Assembly: GCA_000004985.1 (NCBI GenBank)
Contig: GG738895.1
Reading direction: 5' to 3' (one strand)
DNA from: Naegleria gruberi
Taxonomy: Eukaryota
Length of the DNA: 64,000 nucleotides
The position numbers and the translations under genes are program-made. The notes under the pieces are model-generated. The model was not told the DNA's origin. It saw only the letters and a program-made list of their open reading frames with translations, and made no database searches. Of this stretch, positions 3,637 to 42,852 are shown piece by piece; position 1 is the first letter of the stretch; each line of letters starts with the position of its first letter.

Positions 3637-5322
3637 TTATTTCCAAGTCAATTTTTGATATTTAAGGGATAATTGTTCAATTCTCTGTTCTAACTGAGTG
3701 ATTTGTGACCAGTAGATGTATGGATTTGACTCTGGATTGTCAGTAATCCAATCTAACAAGCTTTGATACTCTAGCATACAAATGTCAAAAGCTGCTTTCT
3801 TATTTTCAGATTGTTCGATTAGAGATTCATGAGCTAACAACCATGCATATCTCAAATCTATATCAGAATTAGGTTCCTTAACATATGGTTCCATTCTTCT
3901 TATGGCCTCTTGTGCTTTTCCTGAGAGTCTTAGAGAATTGGCCATTACAATGATGCATTCCCTTAATTGGTATTCTGTCAAAACAAAGTTGACAGCCAAT
4001 AATTTTTCAATATTGAATAATGCAGTGCCATAATCTTCCAACAAGATGTGAACTTTTGCCTTATTGATCAAATTAACAATATTGTGTTGGGGAATTTTGC
4101 TGCCCTTTTCAGATAATTCTAAATATTTCTTCGATTCCTCAATGAATTCAACAAATTCGGAGCTCGAATTTCTAGTACTTTGAACAAGAGAAGCAGCATG
4201 CAACAACACACTACCTTTCAAAATAAAATAATCAGAAAAACAAAGTGGAAAGTTATCACTGTTCCTATTTCTCAGATTATCAAAAATTTCAGTAATTCTT
4301 TCGATATTCCTCTTGGTTTCCTCCATATTGTCGGGATACAAGTTATGGGTGCACTCTTTCAATATGAAACCTTTCGCATACACGTTGTTTTGGTCTAGCT
4401 CAATTGCCTTTTTGAGCAGAGTTTCGGCTTGTGTGTAATTACCTTCAACAATATCAATGACAGCCCTTACTAGTTCAATACATGAATTAATCTTGATATC
4501 CATTCCAGTCTCCAAATCAAACAGAGTATCATCCTTATTCAATAAACTCCATTCATTATGCTTTTGACAAATATTCTTCATGAGAATGGTCTCTTCCCTG
4601 CTTAATAGCTTCATTGCAAGTCCATAATTTGCAAAATAGAAAACTGATTCGAACAATTCTTTTTCCAAAGTCTCATCAACTGCATTATCAATTTCTTTCT
4701 TAAATTCAATAATTTCTAAATTCAATGAAACATATTCAGTCAAATATTTCTTTAACAAGTGACAAGAATAGAGATTGGAAGCATATTCTTTCAGAAGTGG
4801 ATTAGTTTTAAACGCATTAAATACATAATCAAACAACCATTCTTCATTATCTTTCAAAATATCACTTTTCAATTGTTTTTTAATCGTATCAATCAGGAAA
4901 CTTGGAATTCCATAAAAAATTCCCTCTTTTGTTTCCTTATTTTTAATTAATAATGATAAAAATTCATCTGTTGCATTGTTAGTTTGTTTTCCTTTCACAA
5001 TATTTTCAATTTCCAATTTGATTTGTTTTTTGTAATCTAATAAAGACTTGGTTGACTTGAACGGATTTTCATTTTGATTGAATTCTTGTCCAATTAAACC
5101 TCCATTAATTTGCTTGTCTTTGATATTTTCTAAACCACCCGAACAAATACGAAACCTATTTTCCAACTCCAACTTATTCGAATCTTCATTTCTATGAAAA
5201 AGTGCAATGTGAAATTGCTCATTGTAACATCCCAGTTTTGCCAATGCTACAAAATAGTTAACTCGTGTTGATTGCACTTTAAATAAGTTTCGTCTCTGAA
5301 GGAGCGTTCTTCTAATGAACAT
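3637..5322 (-). CDS. Hypothetical helical-repeat (TPR/PPR-like) protein with a mitochondrial-presequence-like N-terminus
   Basis: 561-aa uninterrupted ORF starting at ATG 5322 in an AAAAATG context. The N-terminus MFIRRTLLQRRNLFKVQSTR is basic and hydroxylated. The rest is rich in amphipathic helices. No family assigned. Confidence 0.55.
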   Translation of the reverse strand: MFIRRTLLQRRNLFKVQSTRVNYFVALAKLGCYNEQFHIALFHRNEDSNKLELENRFRICSGGLENIKDKQINGGLIGQEFNQNENPFKSTKSLLDYKKQIKLEIENIVKGKQTNNATDEFLSLLIKNKETKEGIFYGIPSFLIDTIKKQLKSDILKDNEEWLFDYVFNAFKTNPLLKEYASNLYSCHLLKKYLTEYVSLNLEIIEFKKEIDNAVDETLEKELFESVFYFANYGLAMKLLSREETILMKNICQKHNEWSLLNKDDTLFDLETGMDIKINSCIELVRAVIDIVEGNYTQAETLLKKAIELDQNNVYAKGFILKECTHNLYPDNMEETKRNIERITEIFDNLRNRNSDNFPLCFSDYFILKGSVLLHAASLVQSTRNSSSEFVEFIEESKKYLELSEKGSKIPQHNIVNLINKAKVHILLEDYGTALFNIEKLLAVNFVLTEYQLRECIIVMANSLRLSGKAQEAIRRMEPYVKEPNSDIDLRYAWLLAHESLIEQSENKKAAFDICMLEYQSLLDWITDNPESNPYIYWSQITQLEQRIEQLSLKYQKLTWK

Positions 5323-34541: not shown

Positions 34542-36406
34542 TTATTTAATTGATTTGACAACTCTCCTTGATAGTAATGCCAAATCTGTTAATTGAGAAA
34601 AGTCAGCTGATCTTCCAATAATTATCCTCTTAACTTCTCCAAAGTATTTCTTACAGGATTGGCATTTAGAAATTCTTGCCTCCAAATTAATATCAATTTG
34701 AGCATTACTGTTTGCAAGTTGAAGATTATCTTCAATTAATTGAGCAAAACAATTGTGGAGTAAATGAGTTATTTTCAGTGCTGTCGAAATATGTTCTTCA
34801 TAATTTTCCTGAACGAGCTCGATAATTATTGGAAGTAAATATACACACATATCAAGAGATATATTCTTCTTGGCTTCTGGACGAAGTAACTCGTTTAACA
34901 TATCTGAAGCTAATGGAAGATCTTTCATCTTGGCCATAGCTTTAATGGCTTCCTTTGGATCACCTTGATCAATCCACGTTCTTCTCACAATCTTGAGATT
35001 ATTTAATCTATTTGTCATTGCAACAGCCATCTTTTGATGCGACTTCATAATGCCATTAATGATATCCTCGTCACTAATCTCTGTAATTACTTCTCCTTTC
35101 TAATGAAATGTTATTGAAACTCAAATACAAAGATACTTACTGGAAGGAAGTTATCAATATCTAAATTTGCTGGCTCCTTTCTCTTTGCAGAGACAATTGC
35201 AACCTCAGGTGTTTGTCCTCCTAATTGAGGAGTTCTCCTTCCTTCGCCTGATACTTTTGTTACCGTAAATACTTCTCCATTATTTGTTGTAGTTGTAGAT
35301 ATACTAACAGGCTTTCTATTTCTAATTTCATTCAGTACATCCTCAGTTGAACTATTGAGGTTTTCATTGAAACTCTCCTGAGTAATCTGAGGTGAAAGAA
35401 TTACCTTCTTATTATCATCTCCACTACCAGTATACCAAGGCTTTACAGAATCGACTGGAATAACCCAAACACCAACATATCCATTGATATTAGGATTATT
35501 TGCAACAGTAAATACTTGATTCAATCCTTGATGTAAATATACATCTCCAACATCACTCCATCTAGCATCTACATTGTCAATACAACGCATATTCTCACTC
35601 TTCCAACTGTGAACTTTCAGTCCTTCATTGCAAATTGATAAGATAACAGATCCCTCATTTGGACTAAATTGCACAGACTTGATTGCAGAAGGGAAAATAT
35701 CAGAACGAGAAACCATATCAACTCCTCCATCAATATTGAAAACTGAAACAGTTCTATCTAAACTGCCTGTAGCAACCAAGAAATCAGATGGGTGAAAGTC
35801 CATACAAGTCAAAGCATTTCTGTGAGCTTGTGTTTGGTAGAATAATTTTCCAGCAATAACATCATAAACTCTGAGAAAACCATCCTCACAACCTGTTACA
35901 ATCCATTTTCCATCAGGAGTGAATTTTACTACGGTAACAGCCTCCTTTTCTACTTGACCTTTGTATGTTTGAACAGCTTTCCTCTCCTTAACATCCCAAA
36001 CTTTTAAATTTGTATCAAGAGAACCTGTTGCGAAATAATTAGCAAAAGGATGGTAGTCAATACAAGTAACACTTGCACGATGTCCATTTACATAAATTGC
36101 ACTGGAGTGATTTAATTGTTGTCCAGAATTTAAATCCCATGATCTGATTGAACCGGATTCAGCAGCAGCAATAAGTAAATCTTCTGTATTATTAAAAGCG
36201 AGACAAGTAATTGGACTTTTATGACCAATCAGAGACATTAAGGGCTCATCATTGGCAGCATGCCATACTTTTACTATAGCATCTTCACTTCCGGTTGCAA
36301 ATATTTGACCAGATTTTCTACCAATCCTCGAACACAACACTTGTTTTTTGTGTGCTGCAAAGTTTCTCAAATTAATTGCTCGTCCTCTCAAATCATCGAT
36401 TAGCAT
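34542..36406 (-). CDS. Katanin p80 WD40 regulatory subunit (KATNB1-like); 2 exons, 607 aa
   Basis: Proposed structure is join(36406..35141,35099..34542), with a 41-nt intron GTAAGT...CAATAACATTTCATTAG. The N-terminal WD40 blades (GHKSPITCLAFN, SIRSWDL, TGSLDTNLKVWDV, KFTPDGKWIVTG) align block-by-block with human KATNB1. The C-terminal exon encodes the con80 domain (RLNNLKIVRRTWIDQGDPKEAI...LLPIIIELV...KCQSCKKYF). Confidence 0.85.
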
Positions 36407-36576
36407 TTTTTATTTTAAGAATTTCTGTACGTAAAAAAGGCGCCATTTTGGTTTTAAAAACAATAAACGTCAAACTCCCTTGATTGTTATTGCGAGTTGT
36501 ATAATTTGTCATACAATTTACAAGTACTCAAATGAGGAATTGTAATAAATAAATCTTTTTGAGTCTTATTAAAAAT

Positions 36577-37776
36577 TTAGAATTGAGAAGTAAGTGATTT
36601 TGGTTTGATATCCAAATCTTCAAAAGTCATAACTGTCTTCTTATAGGATGGTTCACCAAGTCTATCCAAAACTCCTTGAAGTGTCAAATCACCACCATGT
36701 TGTCTCAAAATATTGAATTGGTCACGAGTGACAGTTGGATTTGGTAACATTTGCGTACATCCAAGAATAAAATCAAAGACTGGATATGGAGTTGGTATAG
36801 CTGGTCTACTGAAAGTCTTTGAAATAATTTGACCAAAGGTCATTACTTCTGGACCTGCCAAATACAAATTCTTTCCTTTAGTTTCTTCAACCTTGGAGAA
36901 AATTGTCTTTTCGAGAGCTTCAACAACATCTTCAACAAAAACTGGTTGAAGTTTAGCACCTGAGAATGGTGTTGGTATAACTGGGAAGAATTTCAATGGA
37001 GTTCTTCTGATTCTGTTAATATAAGCACCTGATGAGTAGTTACCCTTTCTATCGAACATAATACTTGGCTTTACATTGGTTGAATTTGGGAAATTACCAT
37101 AGACAATATCCTCAGATCTGAAATTGGTATCAGACCACCATGAAGGTGAATCAAGTTCCGAGTTAAGGAAAGTAACATTAATCATTTGGTCAGCACCATT
37201 TGTGTGTGCACTATGAGAAATATTGCTTGGTCCATCAATATAAATTTCAACAAAAGTGTTATCACTTTCATAAAGGATTCCTGTAAGATTGATAACAACA
37301 TCACTTCCGTAAATAGCTCTATCAACAGAGTCCTTATCAGTGACGTCAGAATAAACAACAGTAATGTTATCTAAATAGTTCCAATTAACATTAAATTATC
37401 ATTATCAAAATTATCAAGGTTGTTTGTGTTAAACATTTTCAAGCCATAAGAGATTTGTTACATACCACCAATTCTCTTAGCTACTGGTTCAAATTCATTA
37501 TTTCCTCTACAAGCAACAATAACTCTATCGCATTGTGGAGCGATACGCTTCACGACTTCTTGTCCAAGGAAACCATTACCACCAAAGATAGTCACTGTTG
37601 GTTTAACATGTCTAACAGAGGTTGTAGCAGTGGAATAAAACTAGTTAATATCCAAAATTAAATAATTTAATATAACAAGAGATTTAAATAATAATATTTA
37701 CTTTTTGTTGGGAGGTAAGTAAATTTTTGGAGAGGAGAGATTTGTTTCCGCTGACGAGTCTCTTAAAGCTTTGCAT
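36577..37776 (-). CDS. NADH dehydrogenase (complex I) 39-kDa subunit NDUFA9-like (NmrA/SDR fold), mitochondrial; 3 exons, 347 aa
   Basis: Proposed structure is join(37776..37702,37640..37466,37370..36577). Exon 1 encodes only a presequence MQSFKRLVSGNKSLLSKNLLTSQQK. Introns are GTAAAT..AACTAG (61 nt) and GTATGT..ATTTAG (89 nt). VTIFGGNGFLGQEVV is the Rossmann motif. DVTDKDSVDRAIYGSDVVINLTG matches the NDUFA9 block [23 protein letters not shown]. Confidence 0.75.
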
Positions 37777-38009: not shown

Positions 38010-40016
38010 ATGTTCTCAAGAGCCTCATCTTCCGCTCGCTCGCTCTTCCAAAGATCAAGCTTGTTTTTCAAAGAAAACAATGCTGGTAAGAATTTCGAAA
38101 AAGTGACAAAGAGATTCAAGTCAAGTGGTGAAAGAGAGAAATATTTCAACGAATATGGTACCAGACCAGAATATTTACAAAACAAGAGAAAGACTTCATT
38201 CATGCCTCTCTTCTTCCTTGCCGGATTCGTGCCATTGGTTTTAACGCCTATGGTTATCGATTGGTGGATTAGAAGTGATCGTCAAAATGGTGATGAAAAC
38301 TTGAAGGAATATTTGCAACAAAAGGCTGTGAAGGAAGAAATTAAAAAGGACAAAACCAATCATCATGAGGACGTTACTGTTGCTTCAGCAAAGAAGCCAG
38401 AAGTTAGTAAATACAGTATGTAGAGAAACAACATAAACAAGGTTAGGGATAACCAAGGAACTTATAAATTTTGAAATTTAATTGAATTTTCTATAATAAT
38501 AATAATAATAGAATATGTATTAATTGGTGGTGGAACAGCATCATATGCTGGTAAGTTTAGTTTTAAATTACAATAGATTTATTAACAATTAAAAGCTTTG
38601 AAGGCTATCAGAAAGAACGACCCATCAGCCAACGTTCTTATTGTTACAGTTGAGGAATATGCTCCTTATGAACGTCCACCTCTCTCAAAGGAACTCTGGG
38701 ATTCACCAAAGAGTGAGGAATTAAAGTTTGTTAATTGGCTCGGTCAAGAAACCTCAGTTGAATATGAACCTGTTTCTGCTTATGAGAAGGACGAAAATAT
38801 TACCCTCCTTACCAAGACTAAAGTAGTTCAATTGGATACTCATAACCAAACTATTTTGGCCTCTAACGGAAAGCATTATACTTATGAAAAGTGTCTCATT
38901 GCTACAGGAGGTACTCCAAGGTATGTAATTATTTCCTAAATTTCAATAATTAATTTTCATTAGAGAATTGCCAGGTAGTGACCAATTCCCAGACAAGGTA
39001 ACCACTTTCAGAACCATTTCTGACTATAAGAAGTTGGCTGAAGTAGCCAATAAGGATAATGCTCATGTAAGTTGTTGTTTCATTTTTTTTGTTGAAATTT
39101 TTGGAAACCATGTAGATTCTCATCGGTAAGTTAATTAGTAAGGATTTATTTAAATGATAACAATCATCTAGTCGGTGGTAGTTTCTTGGGTACTGAATTG
39201 AGTTATGCTGTTGCTAACAAGGTTAACAAGAAGAAGGGTTCAAAGGTCACCCAAGTTTATCTTGAACCTGATGTTTTGGCTCGTTGGCTTCCAAGATACC
39301 TCAGTGAACGTGTTAGACAAACACTCATCTCTGCTGGTGTCAATTTGAAGCCAAATACCAATGTTGTCAGTGTTGAACCAAGTAAGGGATCTGATAGAGT
39401 CATTGTTTCTTTGGATAATGGTGAAAAATTGGAAGCTGACTTTGTTGTAACTACTACTGGTATCTATCCAAATACCTATGTTGCCGAAGAAGCTGGTTTG
39501 GAAATTGATCCACAAAACAGTGGTATTGTTACCAACTCTCAATTGGAAGCTGTTCAAAACGTCTTTGTTGCTGGTGATGTATTGAGCTACTATGATGTTG
39601 TTTTGGGTAGAAGAAGATCTGAACACCACGAACATGCTGAAGCAACTGGTAGACATGCTGGTACTAACATGTCTACTAGTGCCAAGAAGCCATTCCACTA
39701 CATTAGTATGTTCTGGAGTGATGTTGGTAATGTCCACTTCCAAGCTGTTGGTGAAGTTAACTCATCTCTCGACACTTATGCTGTTTGGAATGATGTTGTT
39801 ATCAAGCAAAATGGTAGCTCATGGACTACTTCTGCTTCTCCAGTTGTTGCCTCAAACTTTGGTAGTGGTGCTGTTTACTATGTCAGAGACAAGAAGGTTG
39901 TTGGTATCTTGTTGTGGAATCTTCCAGATAAATTGGGTCACGCTCGTAAGGTTATTTTGGAAAAGAAGCAATATACCTCATTGGAAGAATTGAAGGATAA
40001 GATTAAGCTTAATTAA
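38010..40016 (+). CDS. Apoptosis-inducing factor (AIFM1-type FAD/NAD oxidoreductase), 6 exons including a 10-nt micro-exon, 575 aa
   Basis: Proposed structure is join(38010..38415,38512..38550,38596..38920,38964..39066,39116..39125,39172..40016). Introns are 96, 45, 43, 49 and 46 nt (GTATGT or GTAAGT donors). Lengths sum to 1728, which is 3 x 576. The protein aligns along its whole length with human AIFM1. Shared blocks: YVLIGGGTASYAALKAIRKNDP, ERPPLSKELW, YEKCLIATGGTPR, ILIVGGSFLGTEL and LGRRRSEHHEHAEATGRHAG. Confidence 0.85.
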
Positions 40017-40111
40017 TTATTTGGGTTGATTAATTTCCCTTATTGTATATACAAAACTATTTTTATAACCGTTATGAAAAGCGCTGCATATTCTTTTTCT
40101 CACCTTAAAAA

Positions 40112-42852
40112 ATGACTTCACCGTTTAGGGGTTCTCCTTTCCTCTCTTATAACAATAAGCAGAGGGGTGGTTTATCTCCAAACTCTGTGAATATCAACAA
40201 GAAAAACCCATCATCCTCTCCGATCTCATTAAAATCCTTCTACAATATAAAGCTTAAAAAACAACAAGAACCTTTTTCGCCAACAACAACAGCATCAAGT
40301 GATGAGGAGGAATATGATAGTCCAGAAAAGAAGAGAGAAATGGCCCAGGATTTATTACGAAGATCTCACCTTCGTCAAAAGAAAAAGATTAAGGAAAAAT
40401 TGGAAATCTACGTTGACAAGGATATTAGGCTATTGAGGGAAGAATCTGAGAAGCTTTCGGAAGAACGGTTCAAAGCTGTTTCCAACCAAGAACAGGATCA
40501 TGTTGACTTTGTGAAGAAAATGTTTGGTGATTTGGAAAAGGTTTATTATGAGAGGAGTCAGCGAAAAATGAGATTACTGAACCGATTAGTCTATTTGAAA
40601 GGTAAGAAATCTTTGCAATACTTGAAAATTTAATTCTTTAAGCCAAACAAATGATTAATAAGATTGCATTTGAAAGTAATATTGAGGAGAATATCATTTC
40701 AACTGATGAAATTACAGATATTGCCCATCAAAAAACAAGAGCATGGATGACAAATATTGTAGAGGATAATATTCAATCTCTGAAGGGGGATTTTATCTAT
40801 AAGTTCGAGGAATTTACAAGAATCACTCCTGAGGAGGAAATCAAGGAATTGAAGGAATCAATCTTTAAATACGTATCTCCAGTGGTAGAGAAGAAAAAGA
40901 GAGATAGTAGCATTGCAAGAAAAACACACTACCAATCTATTAAGGCATGCAAAGAAAGAGTTCTTAATGCTTTTACTAGAAATATTAAGAATAAGTTTGA
41001 GAAGAATTTTGAAGACAAGTACAATGAAAAAGTTCAGCAAATTAGTCTAGGAAAGGAAGCAGTGCAGTTAACACCTGATGAAATTATCGAATTTTTGGAA
41101 GCTGATGTTGAAGATTATGAAACTGATATTGGTGTAATTGATGCTGAAATAGATAGAATCAACAATGAAATTACTGAATGGAGGGAAAAGATTGAAATGA
41201 AGAGGGAGTATCACGAAAAACAAAAAGCTGCAATTCAAAGTCAAATTGATTATGTTTCCCAATCAAATCAAGATCTACTCAATAGTATCACAAAGCTGAA
41301 GAAACAACAACAAGCTGTTAAACTGGCAGATACAAAGTTTGTCGAATCAGTTGGTGGAACATTGTTATCAGAATTAATTGAAAAGACACATAGAATTCTC
41401 AAAAGCGATGTACCTAGACTTAAGAACATGTCATCAACCATTGAAGATGAAATTTTATCTTTGGAAAGAGTAATCATAGAAAAAGAAAACGAGGCCAATT
41501 CACTTTCTGAAAAGATGAAGTCTGAAGAAGAGTCAATGAATAATCTCTCCAAGAGACTCAGCATTCTGGGAGTTAGATTGTACCAACATGAGAAAAATAT
41601 CAAGGTACTGGAAGAGAATAAGATTAGTGCCCAAAACGAATGTGAAAAGATTAGATCCCAATTAGAAACTCTAAGAAAAACGGCTCCCAATAGACAACTT
41701 CGTTCGATGGCAAGTAATCATGCATATGAAGAAATGGCTAAATCAATAGAAACCAATTGTACAATATTTTCTCAGGACTTGACAAAACACAAGGAAAATA
41801 ATGAAATGATTATTGAATTTTTGAAAGAGAGAAGAACCAGACTCCAAGAATTGTGTGAATATAACCAACAAAAGATAAGGAAATTGATCAAATATTCTGG
41901 TTCCTTACATAGTATTTGCTCTCCTCATGTAACTCTTGAGCATTCAATTGTAACCATTTACCAAGAGGAACTCGAAAAAGCGTTCAATAACTACAAGAGT
42001 ACAATACAGTCTATCGCAAAGGAATCTGTGAGAAATGCAAACGTGGCAAAATATTTTAATGAAAGAGCCAAGGGAGGATGTGTTGTTTACAAATTCTCGA
42101 ATTACATGTTTGAAAACGACTTGTTAAGGTATGAAATGGGTGTTGATAACCCTAAAATTGAAAAATCAGAAATTGAGGCCTCAATTCAAAAGCAGTTTGT
42201 AAAAGATTCAAGATTGGTTTTATTACTAAACTTTTTACTTGAAATAACAGGTCTCAGCCAAGAATACATTATTCCAGACGGTCTAACTCCAAGTTATTCT
42301 TCACTGTTAGATATGATCCGTAACAAGAATTTCCATGATCATAATGGTATTTCAGTATGTGATTCAGCCAAATCAAAGAATGAGACCTCATTCCTGGATA
42401 ACAAAATATATGGAGAAATTAACACTATCTTCATTAACGCAATTGAAAATCAAACAGTTGTTGATAAGCATGATATAATGAACAGAATTGACCAATTACA
42501 AGAATTAGTATGTAAAAAAGAAGGTGTAAATATGGATGAATTGGAGCAGAAACTTCAAAAGAAACTTGTATTGGTTCAGAGGGAAAAAGAGAGGGCAGCT
42601 GGATTGCAGAAAGAGCTTGAAAGGATTGAAAAGAAAAACCTGGAAACATCCAATACTACTGAAAGGGAAGTAAGAATCAGAGTGAACAGTTTACCTTTGC
42701 CATCTACAGATACCGTGATATATTTTGATGAGGAAACCAATAAGATAGTGGCTGAAGAAAGACAAACTAGAAAGAGAAATTCCTCCTTTTCCCCACGTAG
42801 TTTGATTTCTAAAATTGAAAGTGCCAAGTCAAACTCTCAAAATCAAAATTAG
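40112..42852 (+). CDS. Hypothetical long coiled-coil protein (about 899 aa); 2 exons
   Basis: Proposed structure is join(40112..40601,40643..42852). ORF 40112..40633 ends 9 codons after a GTAAGA donor. A 41-nt intron (..TTCTTTAAG) joins it in frame to ORF 40651..42852. Heptad-rich Glu/Lys/Leu sequence throughout. Confidence 0.55.

What the first reader, a model, noticed from the sequence alone, without database searches (positions are those of the whole stretch)
38010..40016. AIF gene needs a 10-nt internal micro-exon (39116..39125)
Joining exon 4 (ends 39066, phase 0) directly to the last exon (39172) gives an immediate stop. Inserting ATTCTCATCG, flanked by a CATGTAG acceptor and a GTAAGT donor, restores the frame. 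It supplies the residues I-L-I, which align to ITII in front of the second GGxFLG Rossmann motif of AIFM1. A 10-nt exon is at the lower limit of what spliceosomes are known to handle.
Basis: seen in the sequence. Interest (0 to 1): 0.6.

Follow-up and report, generated by a model that had tools for sequence, protein, structure and literature searches.

The report
Conserved 10-base exon in Naegleria AIF gene
The amoeba Naegleria gruberi's gene for the mitochondrial flavoprotein AIF really does contain a 10-base exon, but that exon is already in the public gene model, is shared by other Naegleria species, and is well above the smallest exon sizes known, so it is a correct but ordinary finding.

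Summary
With exons 38010-38415, 38512-38550, 38596-38920, 38964-39066, 39116-39125 and 39172-40016, the gene reads as one clean 575-aa ORF. Skipping ATTCTCATCG shifts the frame and gives a stop nine codons later (TGA 39199-39201).

The 575-aa product is identical, residue for residue, to RefSeq XP_002672767.1 / EFC40023.1 (Naegleria gruberi "programmed cell death 8 isoform 1-like protein"). The window is therefore N. gruberi, and the public model already uses this exon.

An exon of exactly 10 nt, in phase 0/1, sits at the same codon in N. lovaniensis (ATTGTGATTG), N. fowleri (ATTGTTATTG) and a metagenomic Naegleria (ATTGTTGTTG). The differences are codon-like, and the flanking introns do not align between N. 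gruberi and the others. Willaertia, another heterolobosean, a sponge and the rabbit have no intron at either position.

All 31 aligned orthologues have four residues before GG[SG]FLG, as the micro-exon model predicts. The one ORF-preserving rival that keeps the GGSFLG motif and lengthens no intron-derived coding sequence is a cryptic donor 4 nt downstream. It deletes two residues and uses non-consensus donors.

I found no transcript sequence. Ten nucleotides is not near the known limit, since exons of 1-6 nt are documented. Verdict: real, already annotated, low interest.

The parts
38010..38415 (+). Exon 1 of the N. gruberi AIFM1 orthologue. It holds the ATG, an N-terminal presequence and the hydrophobic segment FMPLFFLAGFVPLVLTPMVIDWW.
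   Evidence: Gene model. The splice mapper reproduces the RefSeq protein.
38416..38511 (+). Intron 1: 96 nt, GTATGT...TAATAG, phase 1. It is the only intron position shared with Willaertia magna.
38512..38550 (+). Exon 2: 39 nt. It encodes the FAD-binding GxGxxG motif (YVLIGGGTASYA).
38551..38595 (+). Intron 2: 45 nt, GTAAGT...TAAAAG, phase 1. Shared by N. gruberi, N. lovaniensis and N. fowleri.
38596..38920 (+). Exon 3.
38921..38963 (+). Intron 3: 43 nt, GTATGT...CATTAG, phase 2. Present in N. gruberi and the metagenomic Naegleria L007, absent in N. lovaniensis and N. fowleri.
38964..39066 (+). Exon 4: 103 nt. It ends ...GAT AAT GCT CAT in phase 0.
39067..39115 (+). Intron 4: 49 nt, GTAAGT...ATGTAG, 26% G+C. 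GGAAAC at 39103-39108 is a possible branch site, with the branch A at 39107 (inferred).
   Evidence: The branch site is inferred from the recurring nnnAC 7-17 nt upstream of the 3' splice sites.
39116..39125 (+). The 10-nt micro-exon ATTCTCATCG. It encodes Ile-Leu-Ile plus the first base of Val. This is the beta-strand just before the NADH-binding GGSFLG glycine loop.
   Evidence: Orthologous 10-nt exons are seen.
39126..39171 (+). Intron 5: 46 nt, GTAAGT...ATCTAG, phase 1, 22% G+C. GATAAC at 39156-39161 is a possible branch site, with the branch A at 39160 (inferred).
39172..40016 (+). Last exon: 845 nt including the stop TAA at 40014-40016. It encodes the NADH-binding domain from (V)GGSFLG onward and the AIF_C domain.
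39199..39201 (+). Premature TGA that would be read if the micro-exon were skipped (39066 joined to 39172).
39071..39076 (+). Cryptic donor GTTGTT of the rival single-intron model (39071-39171), which would give H-VI-GGSFLG.

Best explanation
Positions 39116-39125 are a genuine, constitutively included 10-nt coding exon of the Naegleria gruberi orthologue of AIFM1. AIFM1 is the mitochondrial FAD/NADH oxidoreductase known as apoptosis-inducing factor. The exon supplies Ile-Leu-Ile and the first base of the next Val codon. These residues form the hydrophobic beta-strand that leads into the GGSFLG glycine loop of the NADH-binding Rossmann domain.

The exon lies between two short, AT-rich, consensus introns of 49 and 46 nt (GTAAGT...YAG). 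It exists because two introns sit 10 nt apart in sequence that is uninterrupted coding DNA in the outgroups. That arrangement was already present in the common ancestor of the sampled Naegleria species.

Shown here:
- the exon is required for the reading frame;
- the product is identical to the public protein;
- the exon is conserved in length and phase in four Naegleria genomes, with codon-like substitutions.

Inferred from established knowledge of splice-site recognition: each short intron is recognised as a unit (intron definition). An exon of 10 nt is too small to hold a 3'-splice-site complex and a U1 snRNP side by side, so the two introns are probably removed one after the other. The first splicing event fuses the micro-exon to a normal-sized neighbouring exon. 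Either order would work, because neither splice site is created or destroyed by the other event.
For: - **Frame.** Only inclusion of 39116-39125 gives a stop-free 575-aa ORF with consensus splice sites.
- **Match to the public model.** That protein is an exact full-length match to XP_002672767.1 / EFC40023.1 / UniRef100_D2VT53 of N. gruberi. An exhaustive GT/GC-AG splice mapper found no way to encode it from this DNA without both flanking introns.
- **Orthologous loci.** Gene order WD40 / NmrA-like / AIF is the same at these loci. All carry a 10-nt exon at the same codon and in the same phases:
  - N. lovaniensis, L001 4170-4179, ATTGTGATTG;
  - N. fowleri, L003 2706-2715, ATTGTTATTG;
  - metagenomic Naegleria, L007 3800-3809, ATTGTTGTTG.
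- **Substitution pattern.** Differences fall at first and third codon positions only. The second-position T is invariant, so residues stay I/L/V. The flanking introns differ in length (49/46, 55/69, 77/75 and 46/53 nt) and do not align between N. gruberi and the others.
- **Protein alignment.** All 31 aligned AIF orthologues have exactly four residues of pattern [IV]-x-[IV]-[IV] before GG[SG]FLG, with no gap. Human AIFM1 in the PDB aligns gaplessly.
- **Splice sites.** All 20 mapped introns of the four heterolobosean genes are GTA[A/T/G]GT. The donor after the micro-exon fits this in every species.
- **Annotation method.** The N. lovaniensis and N. fowleri models that contain the exon came from BRAKER1 with RNA-seq hints (PMC6125883, PMC6831594).
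- **Precedent.** Sequential removal of the introns around very small exons is the model proposed for the 1-nt Arabidopsis exon, and it was reported for the 9-nt potato invertase exon (PMC4674806).
Against: I could not obtain any transcript sequence for N. gruberi or any other Naegleria.

- Two scans of metagenome and metatranscriptome contigs for the spliced junction found nothing.
- No RNA-derived protein spanning the junction is in the protein clusters.

Inclusion in mature mRNA is therefore inferred, not observed. An ORF-preserving alternative exists in all four species: the cryptic donor 4 nt downstream, giving H-VI-GG. The Pfam score difference between the two products is small (PF00070 39.5 vs 36.3 bits). 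The order and mechanism of splicing are inference only.
Confidence: 0.93

Rival explanations
1. There is a single 101-nt intron that uses a cryptic donor 4 nt downstream of the consensus one (39071-39171, GTAA|GTTGTT...CTAG). The product would be ...DNAH-VI-GGSFLG... (574 aa), and ATTCTCATCG would be ordinary intron sequence.
For: This is the one ORF-preserving single-intron solution that keeps the GGSFLG motif without adding intron-derived residues. It is formally available in all four Naegleria genomes, because each has GTAAGT after a phase-0 exon end and a phase-1 downstream exon. The Pfam domain scores drop only slightly.
Against: - It removes two residues from a strand that shows no length variation in 31 orthologues. 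PF00070 then loses its first two profile positions.
- The cryptic donors are GTTGTT, GTACTA, GTATAT and GTGCAT. None fits the GTA[ATG]GT seen in 20 of 20 mapped introns, and each sits 4 nt from a perfect GTAAGT.
- It does not explain why AG|ATTNTNRTYG|GTANGT is kept at exactly 10 nt, with an invariant second-position T, inside introns that otherwise do not align.
- All three public annotations chose the micro-exon.
Confidence: 0.03
2. A different small internal exon restores the frame. The candidates are 39116-39137 (22 nt, giving ILIGKLII) and 39131-39137 (7 nt, giving LII), both using the donor GTAAGG at 39138.
For: Both are frame-restoring AG...GT segments without stop codons.
Against: - The downstream intron would be 34 nt, shorter than any of the 20 mapped introns (minimum 43 nt).
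- The donor GTAAGG lacks the +6 T found in 20 of 20 introns.
- The products carry a 4-residue insertion or a 1-residue deletion relative to all orthologues.
- The public N. gruberi protein, and the orthologous 10-nt exons in the other Naegleria genomes, match the 39116-39125 model instead.
Confidence: 0.01
3. The frame problem is an artefact. Either a sequencing or assembly indel lies in 39060-39180, or the gene is a decaying pseudogene, and the apparent micro-exon is coincidence.
For: Nothing specific. A 1-nt indel would also reconcile the two frames.
Against: - The same two-intron, 10-nt-exon architecture occurs in four independently sequenced Naegleria genomes.
- The rest of the gene is an intact ORF, 82% identical to the N. 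lovaniensis protein and syntenic with it.
- Chance simulation gives 0.01% for an all-aliphatic 10-nt exon with a consensus donor.
Confidence: 0.01
4. The micro-exon is real but alternatively skipped. Skipping yields the premature stop at 39199-39201 and an unstable or truncated product, so inclusion acts as a regulated valve on AIF expression. This reading is compatible with the best explanation rather than exclusive of it.
For: Skipping joins two consensus splice sites over 105 nt, within the observed intron size range of 43-131 nt. Very small exons are prone to skipping in other systems (PMC4674806 discussion).
Against: No data here bear on isoform ratios. The strand encoded by the exon is needed in every orthologue, and no conserved regulatory element was seen beyond the splice signals.
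Confidence: 0.1

Closest known systems
Annotated N. gruberi gene model XP_002672767.1 / EFC40023.1 ('programmed cell death 8 isoform 1-like protein', UniRef100_D2VT53)
   Same: The 575-aa product is identical from first to last residue. It can be encoded from this DNA only by including 39116-39125.
   Different: Nothing differs. This is the same gene, and the micro-exon is already implicit in the public CDS. I found no paper that comments on it.
Orthologous AIF genes of N. lovaniensis (C9374_005404) and N. fowleri (FDP41_012966)
   Same: They share the 10-nt exon at the same codon, the same phases (0 and 1), consensus splice sites, the same local gene order, and products 82% identical or closely related.
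   Different: The exon sequence is ATTGTGATTG or ATTGTTATTG (IVI rather than ILI), and the flanking introns are longer (55/69 and 77/75 nt). They lack N. gruberi intron 3 and have an extra intron after TELSY.
Constitutive plant micro-exons, for example the 1-nt exon of Arabidopsis APC11, the 9-nt potato invertase exon, and the conserved plant micro-exons of 15 nt or less (PMC4674806, PMC8831610)
   Same: These are tiny constitutive coding exons, often not a multiple of 3, that are needed for the frame. They are flanked by canonical splice sites and conserved across species, while some relatives carry the same codons in an uninterrupted exon. Sequential intron removal is the proposed mechanism.
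   Different: The lineage differs (Heterolobosea, Discoba), and the flanking introns are much shorter (46-77 nt here). Splicing has not been shown experimentally here.
Neuronal alternative micro-exons of animals (3-27 nt; PRP-40/PRPF40A-dependent; PMC8378409, PMC11648925)
   Same: The exon is very small, which poses the same steric problem for recognising both flanking splice sites at once.
   Different: The animal exons are mostly multiples of 3, are alternatively included, lie between long introns and are regulated by tissue-specific factors. The Naegleria exon is 10 nt and frame-essential, so presumably constitutive, and lies between minimal introns.
Human and mouse AIFM1 (PDB 5fs9, 4bur, 1gv4 and others)
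   Same: The domain order is the same (Pyr_redox_2 with FAD and NADH Rossmann motifs, then AIF_C). Identity is 37-40% and E is about 1e-99. The micro-exon residues align to ITII before GGGFLG.
   Different: In rabbit and sponge this strand lies inside an ordinary exon of about 105-117 nt, with no intron at either Naegleria position.

Membership tests
Spliceosomal micro-exon (internal exon of 30 nt or less; 'small' class of 15 nt or less) | An internal segment of 15 nt or less, bounded by a 3' splice site AG upstream and a 5' splice site GT downstream | tested here: met
   The sequence is TAG|ATTCTCATCG|GTAAGT at 39113-39131. The donor fits the GTA[ATG]GT consensus of 20 of 20 mapped introns.
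Spliceosomal micro-exon (internal exon of 30 nt or less; 'small' class of 15 nt or less) | Inclusion is required to keep the reading frame and to reproduce the conserved protein sequence | tested here: met
   Skipping gives a stop at 39199-39201, while inclusion gives a 575-aa ORF. The alignment to 31 orthologues and to PDB AIFM1 is gapless.
Spliceosomal micro-exon (internal exon of 30 nt or less; 'small' class of 15 nt or less) | Conservation of the exon (position, length, phase, coding-type substitutions) in related species | tested here: met
   Four Naegleria genomes carry it, always at 10 nt and in phases 0 and 1, with an invariant second-position T. The flanking introns do not align.
Spliceosomal micro-exon (internal exon of 30 nt or less; 'small' class of 15 nt or less) | Presence of both exon-exon junctions in mature mRNA | not testable with these tools
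   No Naegleria transcript sequence was reachable, and the junction scans of metagenome contigs were empty. The only support is indirect: the N. lovaniensis and N. fowleri models were built with RNA-seq hints (PMC6125883, PMC6831594).
AIFM1 / apoptosis-inducing factor family | A pyridine-nucleotide-disulphide oxidoreductase fold with two dinucleotide-binding glycine motifs (FAD and NADH) | tested here: met
   PF07992 matches at 175 bits over residues 135-454, and PF00070 at 39 bits from residue 291. The motifs are GGGTAS and GGSFLG.
AIFM1 / apoptosis-inducing factor family | The AIF-specific C-terminal domain | tested here: met
   PF14721 AIF_C scores 72.5 bits against a cut-off of 25.9.
AIFM1 / apoptosis-inducing factor family | Closer to AIFM1 than to the sister families (MDAR, ferredoxin reductases, AIFM2/FSP1) | tested here: met
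   PDB AIFM1 chains match at E about 1e-99. MDAR matches at 1e-29, ferredoxin reductases at 1e-23 and AIFM2 at 1e-10. The named database hits are AIFM1.
AIFM1 / apoptosis-inducing factor family | Mitochondrial localisation, NADH oxidoreductase activity and a role in cell death | not testable with these tools
   Only an N-terminal extension with a hydrophobic segment is visible. No experiment was possible.
Stwintron / nested (twin) spliceosomal intron | One intron interrupts a splice signal of another, so a fixed excision order is obligatory and no sequence between them stays in the mRNA | tested here: not met
   Both introns have complete signals of their own. The 10 nt between them is conserved coding sequence that must remain in the mRNA.
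Recursive splice site (zero-length exon / ratchet point) | Juxtaposed AG|GT with no retained nucleotides | tested here: not met
   Ten nucleotides are retained and are needed for the frame.

The most novel reading that the evidence does not exclude
The two introns were inserted only 10 nt apart on the Naegleria stem, after the split from Willaertia. The resulting micro-exon would not be merely tolerated but used: regulated skipping (stop at 39199-39201, followed by decay) would tune AIF levels during amoeba, flagellate or cyst transitions. Its splicing would follow an obligatory order. That would make it a tractable model of micro-exon recognition in a deep-branching eukaryote that relies on intron definition.
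Probability: 0.06. Interest if true: 0.4.

Novelty: already known. Interest (0 to 1): 0.12.

Why it matters
The practical value is small.

- **Annotation check.** The public N. gruberi, N. lovaniensis and N. fowleri AIF models are right at this point.
- **Test case for gene finders.** This is a clean example for pipelines working on protists with short introns. Such pipelines can mis-model exons this small.
- **Intron evolution.** The gene shows fast intron turnover. Only one of ten distinct intron positions is shared between Naegleria and Willaertia. Yet the intron pair that creates the micro-exon has survived in every Naegleria lineage sampled.

It does not challenge what is known about the spliceosome, because constitutive exons of 1-9 nt are already documented.

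Tried and rejected
- **Junction scans.** I scanned JGI metagenome and metatranscriptome contigs twice for the spliced junction. One pattern was the exact N. gruberi 26-mer and the other was degenerate for the whole genus. Both found nothing, so there is no direct RNA evidence.
- **Cluster members.** I inspected the members of the N. gruberi and N. fowleri protein clusters for RNA-derived fragments across the junction. All ENA and Logan members are ORFs called prokaryote-style on genomic contigs, and they stop at introns.
- **Single-intron alternatives.** I enumerated all 54 ORF-preserving single-intron models in 38990-39260. Forty-five delete all or part of the GGSFLG glycine loop. Five more keep it but add 7-10 residues translated from intron sequence. 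Four stay within two residues of the orthologue length, and three of these put V-I, V-S-F or V-S-C-F in place of I-L-I-V using donors GTTGTT or GTTTCA. I took the +4 donor model as the serious rival and rejected it on donor quality, the orthologue alignment and conservation.
- **DNA alignment of the region.** MAFFT on the three species' genomic segments misplaced the N. gruberi micro-exon. This shows only that the introns do not align. Positional homology was established through the protein-guided splice maps instead.
- **First splice mapper.** It timed out and was rewritten with a two-codon look-ahead.
- **Literature.** Searches for Naegleria micro-exons found nothing relevant. The N. gruberi genome paper is not in the library. 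The pangenome paper has no exon-size statistics.
- **P0127 as an annotation failure.** I considered whether N. fowleri P0127 (304 aa) shows a pipeline failing at the micro-exon. It is simply a copy cut off by the end of its contig.
- **Other architectures.** Stwintron and recursive-splice-site readings were rejected, because the 10 nt are retained coding sequence.
Full report
**What is there**

The window is AT-rich eukaryotic DNA, about 33% G+C. Between 38010 and 40016 on the + strand, three reading frames carry pieces of one protein. The pieces are separated by short AT-rich stretches that begin GTAAGT or GTATGT and end YAG.

Joining 38010-38415, 38512-38550, 38596-38920, 38964-39066, 39116-39125 and 39172-40016 gives a 1,728-nt CDS and a stop-free 575-aa protein. 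The five introns are 96, 45, 43, 49 and 46 nt long and have 16-27% G+C, against 36-41% for the exons.

Exon 4 ends at 39066 in phase 0, and the last exon begins at 39172 in phase 1. The 105 nt between them is a multiple of three, so joining them directly shifts the frame. The read is then HSVVVSWVLN followed by TGA at 39199-39201. That stop is nine codons downstream, not strictly immediate.

**Is the 10-nt exon the right solution?**

I enumerated every GT/GC-AG single intron in 38990-39260 that keeps the ORF open and found 54.
- Forty-five delete all or part of the GGSFLG glycine loop.
- Five more keep the loop but add 7-10 residues translated from intron sequence.
- Four stay within two residues of the orthologue length. 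Three of these use donors GTTGTT or GTTTCA and place V-I, V-S-F or V-S-C-F where orthologues have I-L-I-V.
- The serious rival among these is a cryptic donor 4 nt downstream of the consensus one (39071-39171), giving H-VI-GGSFLG.

Within the 105-nt spacer only three AG...GT segments restore the frame.
- 39116-39125 has a GTAAGT donor and leaves introns of 49 and 46 nt.
- The other two use GTAAGG and leave a 34-nt intron.

In 20,000 shuffles of the spacer, a frame-restoring segment of some kind was common (24%). One with a GTANGT donor was rare (0.6%), and a 10-nt all-aliphatic one was very rare (0.01%).

**Identity of the gene and organism**

The protein matches Pfam Pyr_redox_2 (175 bits), Pyr_redox and AIF_C (72.5 bits). 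Its best solved relatives are human and mouse AIFM1 at E about 1e-99, far ahead of monodehydroascorbate reductase at 1e-29. In that alignment, 'nahilivggsflgtel' pairs with 'vksitiigggflgsel' without a gap.

The closest database proteins are from Naegleria lovaniensis (82% identity) and Willaertia magna (65%).

An exact-sequence look-up then showed that my 575-aa product is identical, first to last residue, to EFC40023.1 / XP_002672767.1 / UniRef100_D2VT53. This is 'programmed cell death 8 isoform 1-like protein' of Naegleria gruberi. An exhaustive splice mapper found that every way of encoding that protein from the window uses both introns 39067-39115 and 39126-39171.

The window is therefore N. 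gruberi, and the public gene model already contains the micro-exon.

**Comparative evidence**

I fetched the orthologous loci. They share the local gene order WD40 protein, NmrA-like protein, then AIF. Each Naegleria genome has a 10-nt exon at the same codon, with phase 0 upstream and phase 1 downstream.

| Genome | Locus and position | Exon sequence | Upstream / downstream intron (nt) |
|---|---|---|---|
| N. gruberi | window 39116-39125 | ATTCTCATCG | 49 / 46 |
| N. lovaniensis | L001 4170-4179 | ATTGTGATTG | 55 / 69 |
| N. fowleri | L003 2706-2715 | ATTGTTATTG | 77 / 75 |
| Naegleria sp., ENA metagenome | L007 3800-3809 | ATTGTTGTTG | 46 / 53 |

- The four exons differ only at first and third codon positions. 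The second-position T never changes, so the residues stay Ile, Leu or Val.
- The flanking introns differ in length and do not align between N. gruberi and the others.
- The shared pattern AGATTNTNATYGGTRNGT occurs once in the 64-kb window, with none expected.
- All 20 introns mapped in the N. gruberi, N. lovaniensis, N. fowleri and Willaertia genes read GTA[A/T/G]GT, including every donor after the micro-exon.
- The rival cryptic donors read GTTGTT, GTACTA, GTATAT and GTGCAT.
- In an alignment of 31 AIF orthologues from Heterolobosea, jakobids, fungi, amoebozoans and animals, the stretch before GG[SG]FLG never varies in length. The micro-exon model fits it exactly, and the rival would be a unique two-residue deletion.
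- The Pfam Pyr_redox match then starts at profile position 3 instead of 1 and loses 3 bits.

**Origin**

- Willaertia magna has the codons as uninterrupted sequence, ggtcacgttgtcattgttggaggt.
- A second heterolobosean metagenome contig carries an intron-free gene.
- In a sponge and in the rabbit the strand lies inside an ordinary exon of about 105-117 nt.

Mapped on a common alignment, only the first intron is shared between Naegleria and Willaertia. The two micro-exon introns are shared by all Naegleria. The remaining positions are lineage-specific. The metagenomic Naegleria carries both the intron otherwise seen only in N. gruberi and the one otherwise seen only in N. lovaniensis and N. fowleri.

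The simplest reading is inference. Two introns came to lie 10 nt apart on the Naegleria stem, and both have been kept since then, while other introns of the gene were lost.

**How it probably works**

This section is inference from established knowledge. With introns of 43-131 nt, Naegleria should recognise introns as units.

A 10-nt exon cannot hold the 3'-splice-site and branch-site complex of the upstream intron and a U1 snRNP on the downstream donor at the same time. The two introns are therefore most likely removed in succession. The first event turns the micro-exon into the end of a normal-sized exon.

This is the model proposed for the 1-nt exon of Arabidopsis APC11, and it was reported for the 9-nt potato invertase exon (PMC4674806). 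Candidate branch sites of the form nnnAC lie 8 and 11 nt upstream of the two acceptors, with the branch A at 39107 and at 39160.

**What is missing**

I could not obtain transcript sequence.
- Two junction scans of metagenome contigs were empty.
- All non-annotated cluster members are genomic ORF fragments.

Indirect support does exist: the N. lovaniensis and N. fowleri models were built by BRAKER1 with RNA-seq hints (PMC6125883, PMC6831594).

**Comparison with what is known, and verdict**

The exon meets every sequence-level criterion for a conserved constitutive micro-exon. Its presence in mRNA could not be tested here.

It is not at the limit of spliceosome capability.
- A constitutive 1-nt exon has been demonstrated (PMC4674806).
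- Thousands of plant exons of 15 nt or less are catalogued (PMC8831610).
- A constitutive 4-nt human exon is described (PMC9929638).

No paper appears to discuss micro-exons in Naegleria, but the exon is already part of the RefSeq model. The finding is correct, already annotated and of low interest.

Noticed in passing
window 38512-38550: Exon 2 of the same gene is only 39 nt. It encodes the FAD-binding GxGxxG motif (YVLIGGGTASYA). Both dinucleotide-binding glycine loops of this protein therefore sit at or next to unusually small exons. Exon 2 is conserved in N. lovaniensis and N. fowleri.
   Followed up: partly
window 35114-37625 (- strand) and 40100-42800 (+ strand): The gene order WD40-repeat protein, NmrA-like/3-beta-HSD-type protein, AIF, then two further genes is conserved with N. 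lovaniensis. The upstream pair is also conserved in N. fowleri, Willaertia magna and the metagenomic Naegleria contig.
   Followed up: partly
L008 1501-2787 (N. fowleri VFQX01000018.1, contig end): N. fowleri FDP41_013352 (P0127, 304 aa) is a second copy of the AIF gene cut off by the end of a 41.8-kb contig. Its model reads through the intron-4 donor (...DNAH|VSISALSLIF) even though the micro-exon ATTGTTATTG is present in the DNA. It looks like an assembly overlap or haplotig artefact.
   Followed up: partly
window 39226-39236: An ENA metagenome contig nearly identical to N. gruberi encodes KKKK where the window has KKK, in a run of AAG codons (P0122). This is probably a strain-level codon-repeat indel.
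   Followed up: no
window 38010-40016 compared with L001, L003, L007, L002: Intron turnover in this gene is high. Only the first intron position is shared between Naegleria and Willaertia. The metagenomic Naegleria L007 carries both the intron otherwise specific to N. gruberi (GGTPR|E) and the one otherwise specific to N. lovaniensis and N. fowleri (TELSY|A). This implies differential intron loss within the genus while the micro-exon pair was kept.
   Followed up: partly
window 39155-39171; L001 about 4232-4248; L003 about 2772-2790: The last 15 nt or so of the intron downstream of the micro-exon keeps a similar ACAA[AT]NATCAT motif in N. gruberi, N. lovaniensis and N. fowleri, although the rest of the intron does not align. 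It may be the branch-site region.
   Followed up: no
one search hit list: The homology search did not list the N. gruberi protein's own cluster, although the exact look-up shows it is in the collection. The cluster representative is a 277-aa ENA fragment. A missing self-hit in that tool should not be taken to mean the protein is unannotated.
   Followed up: yes
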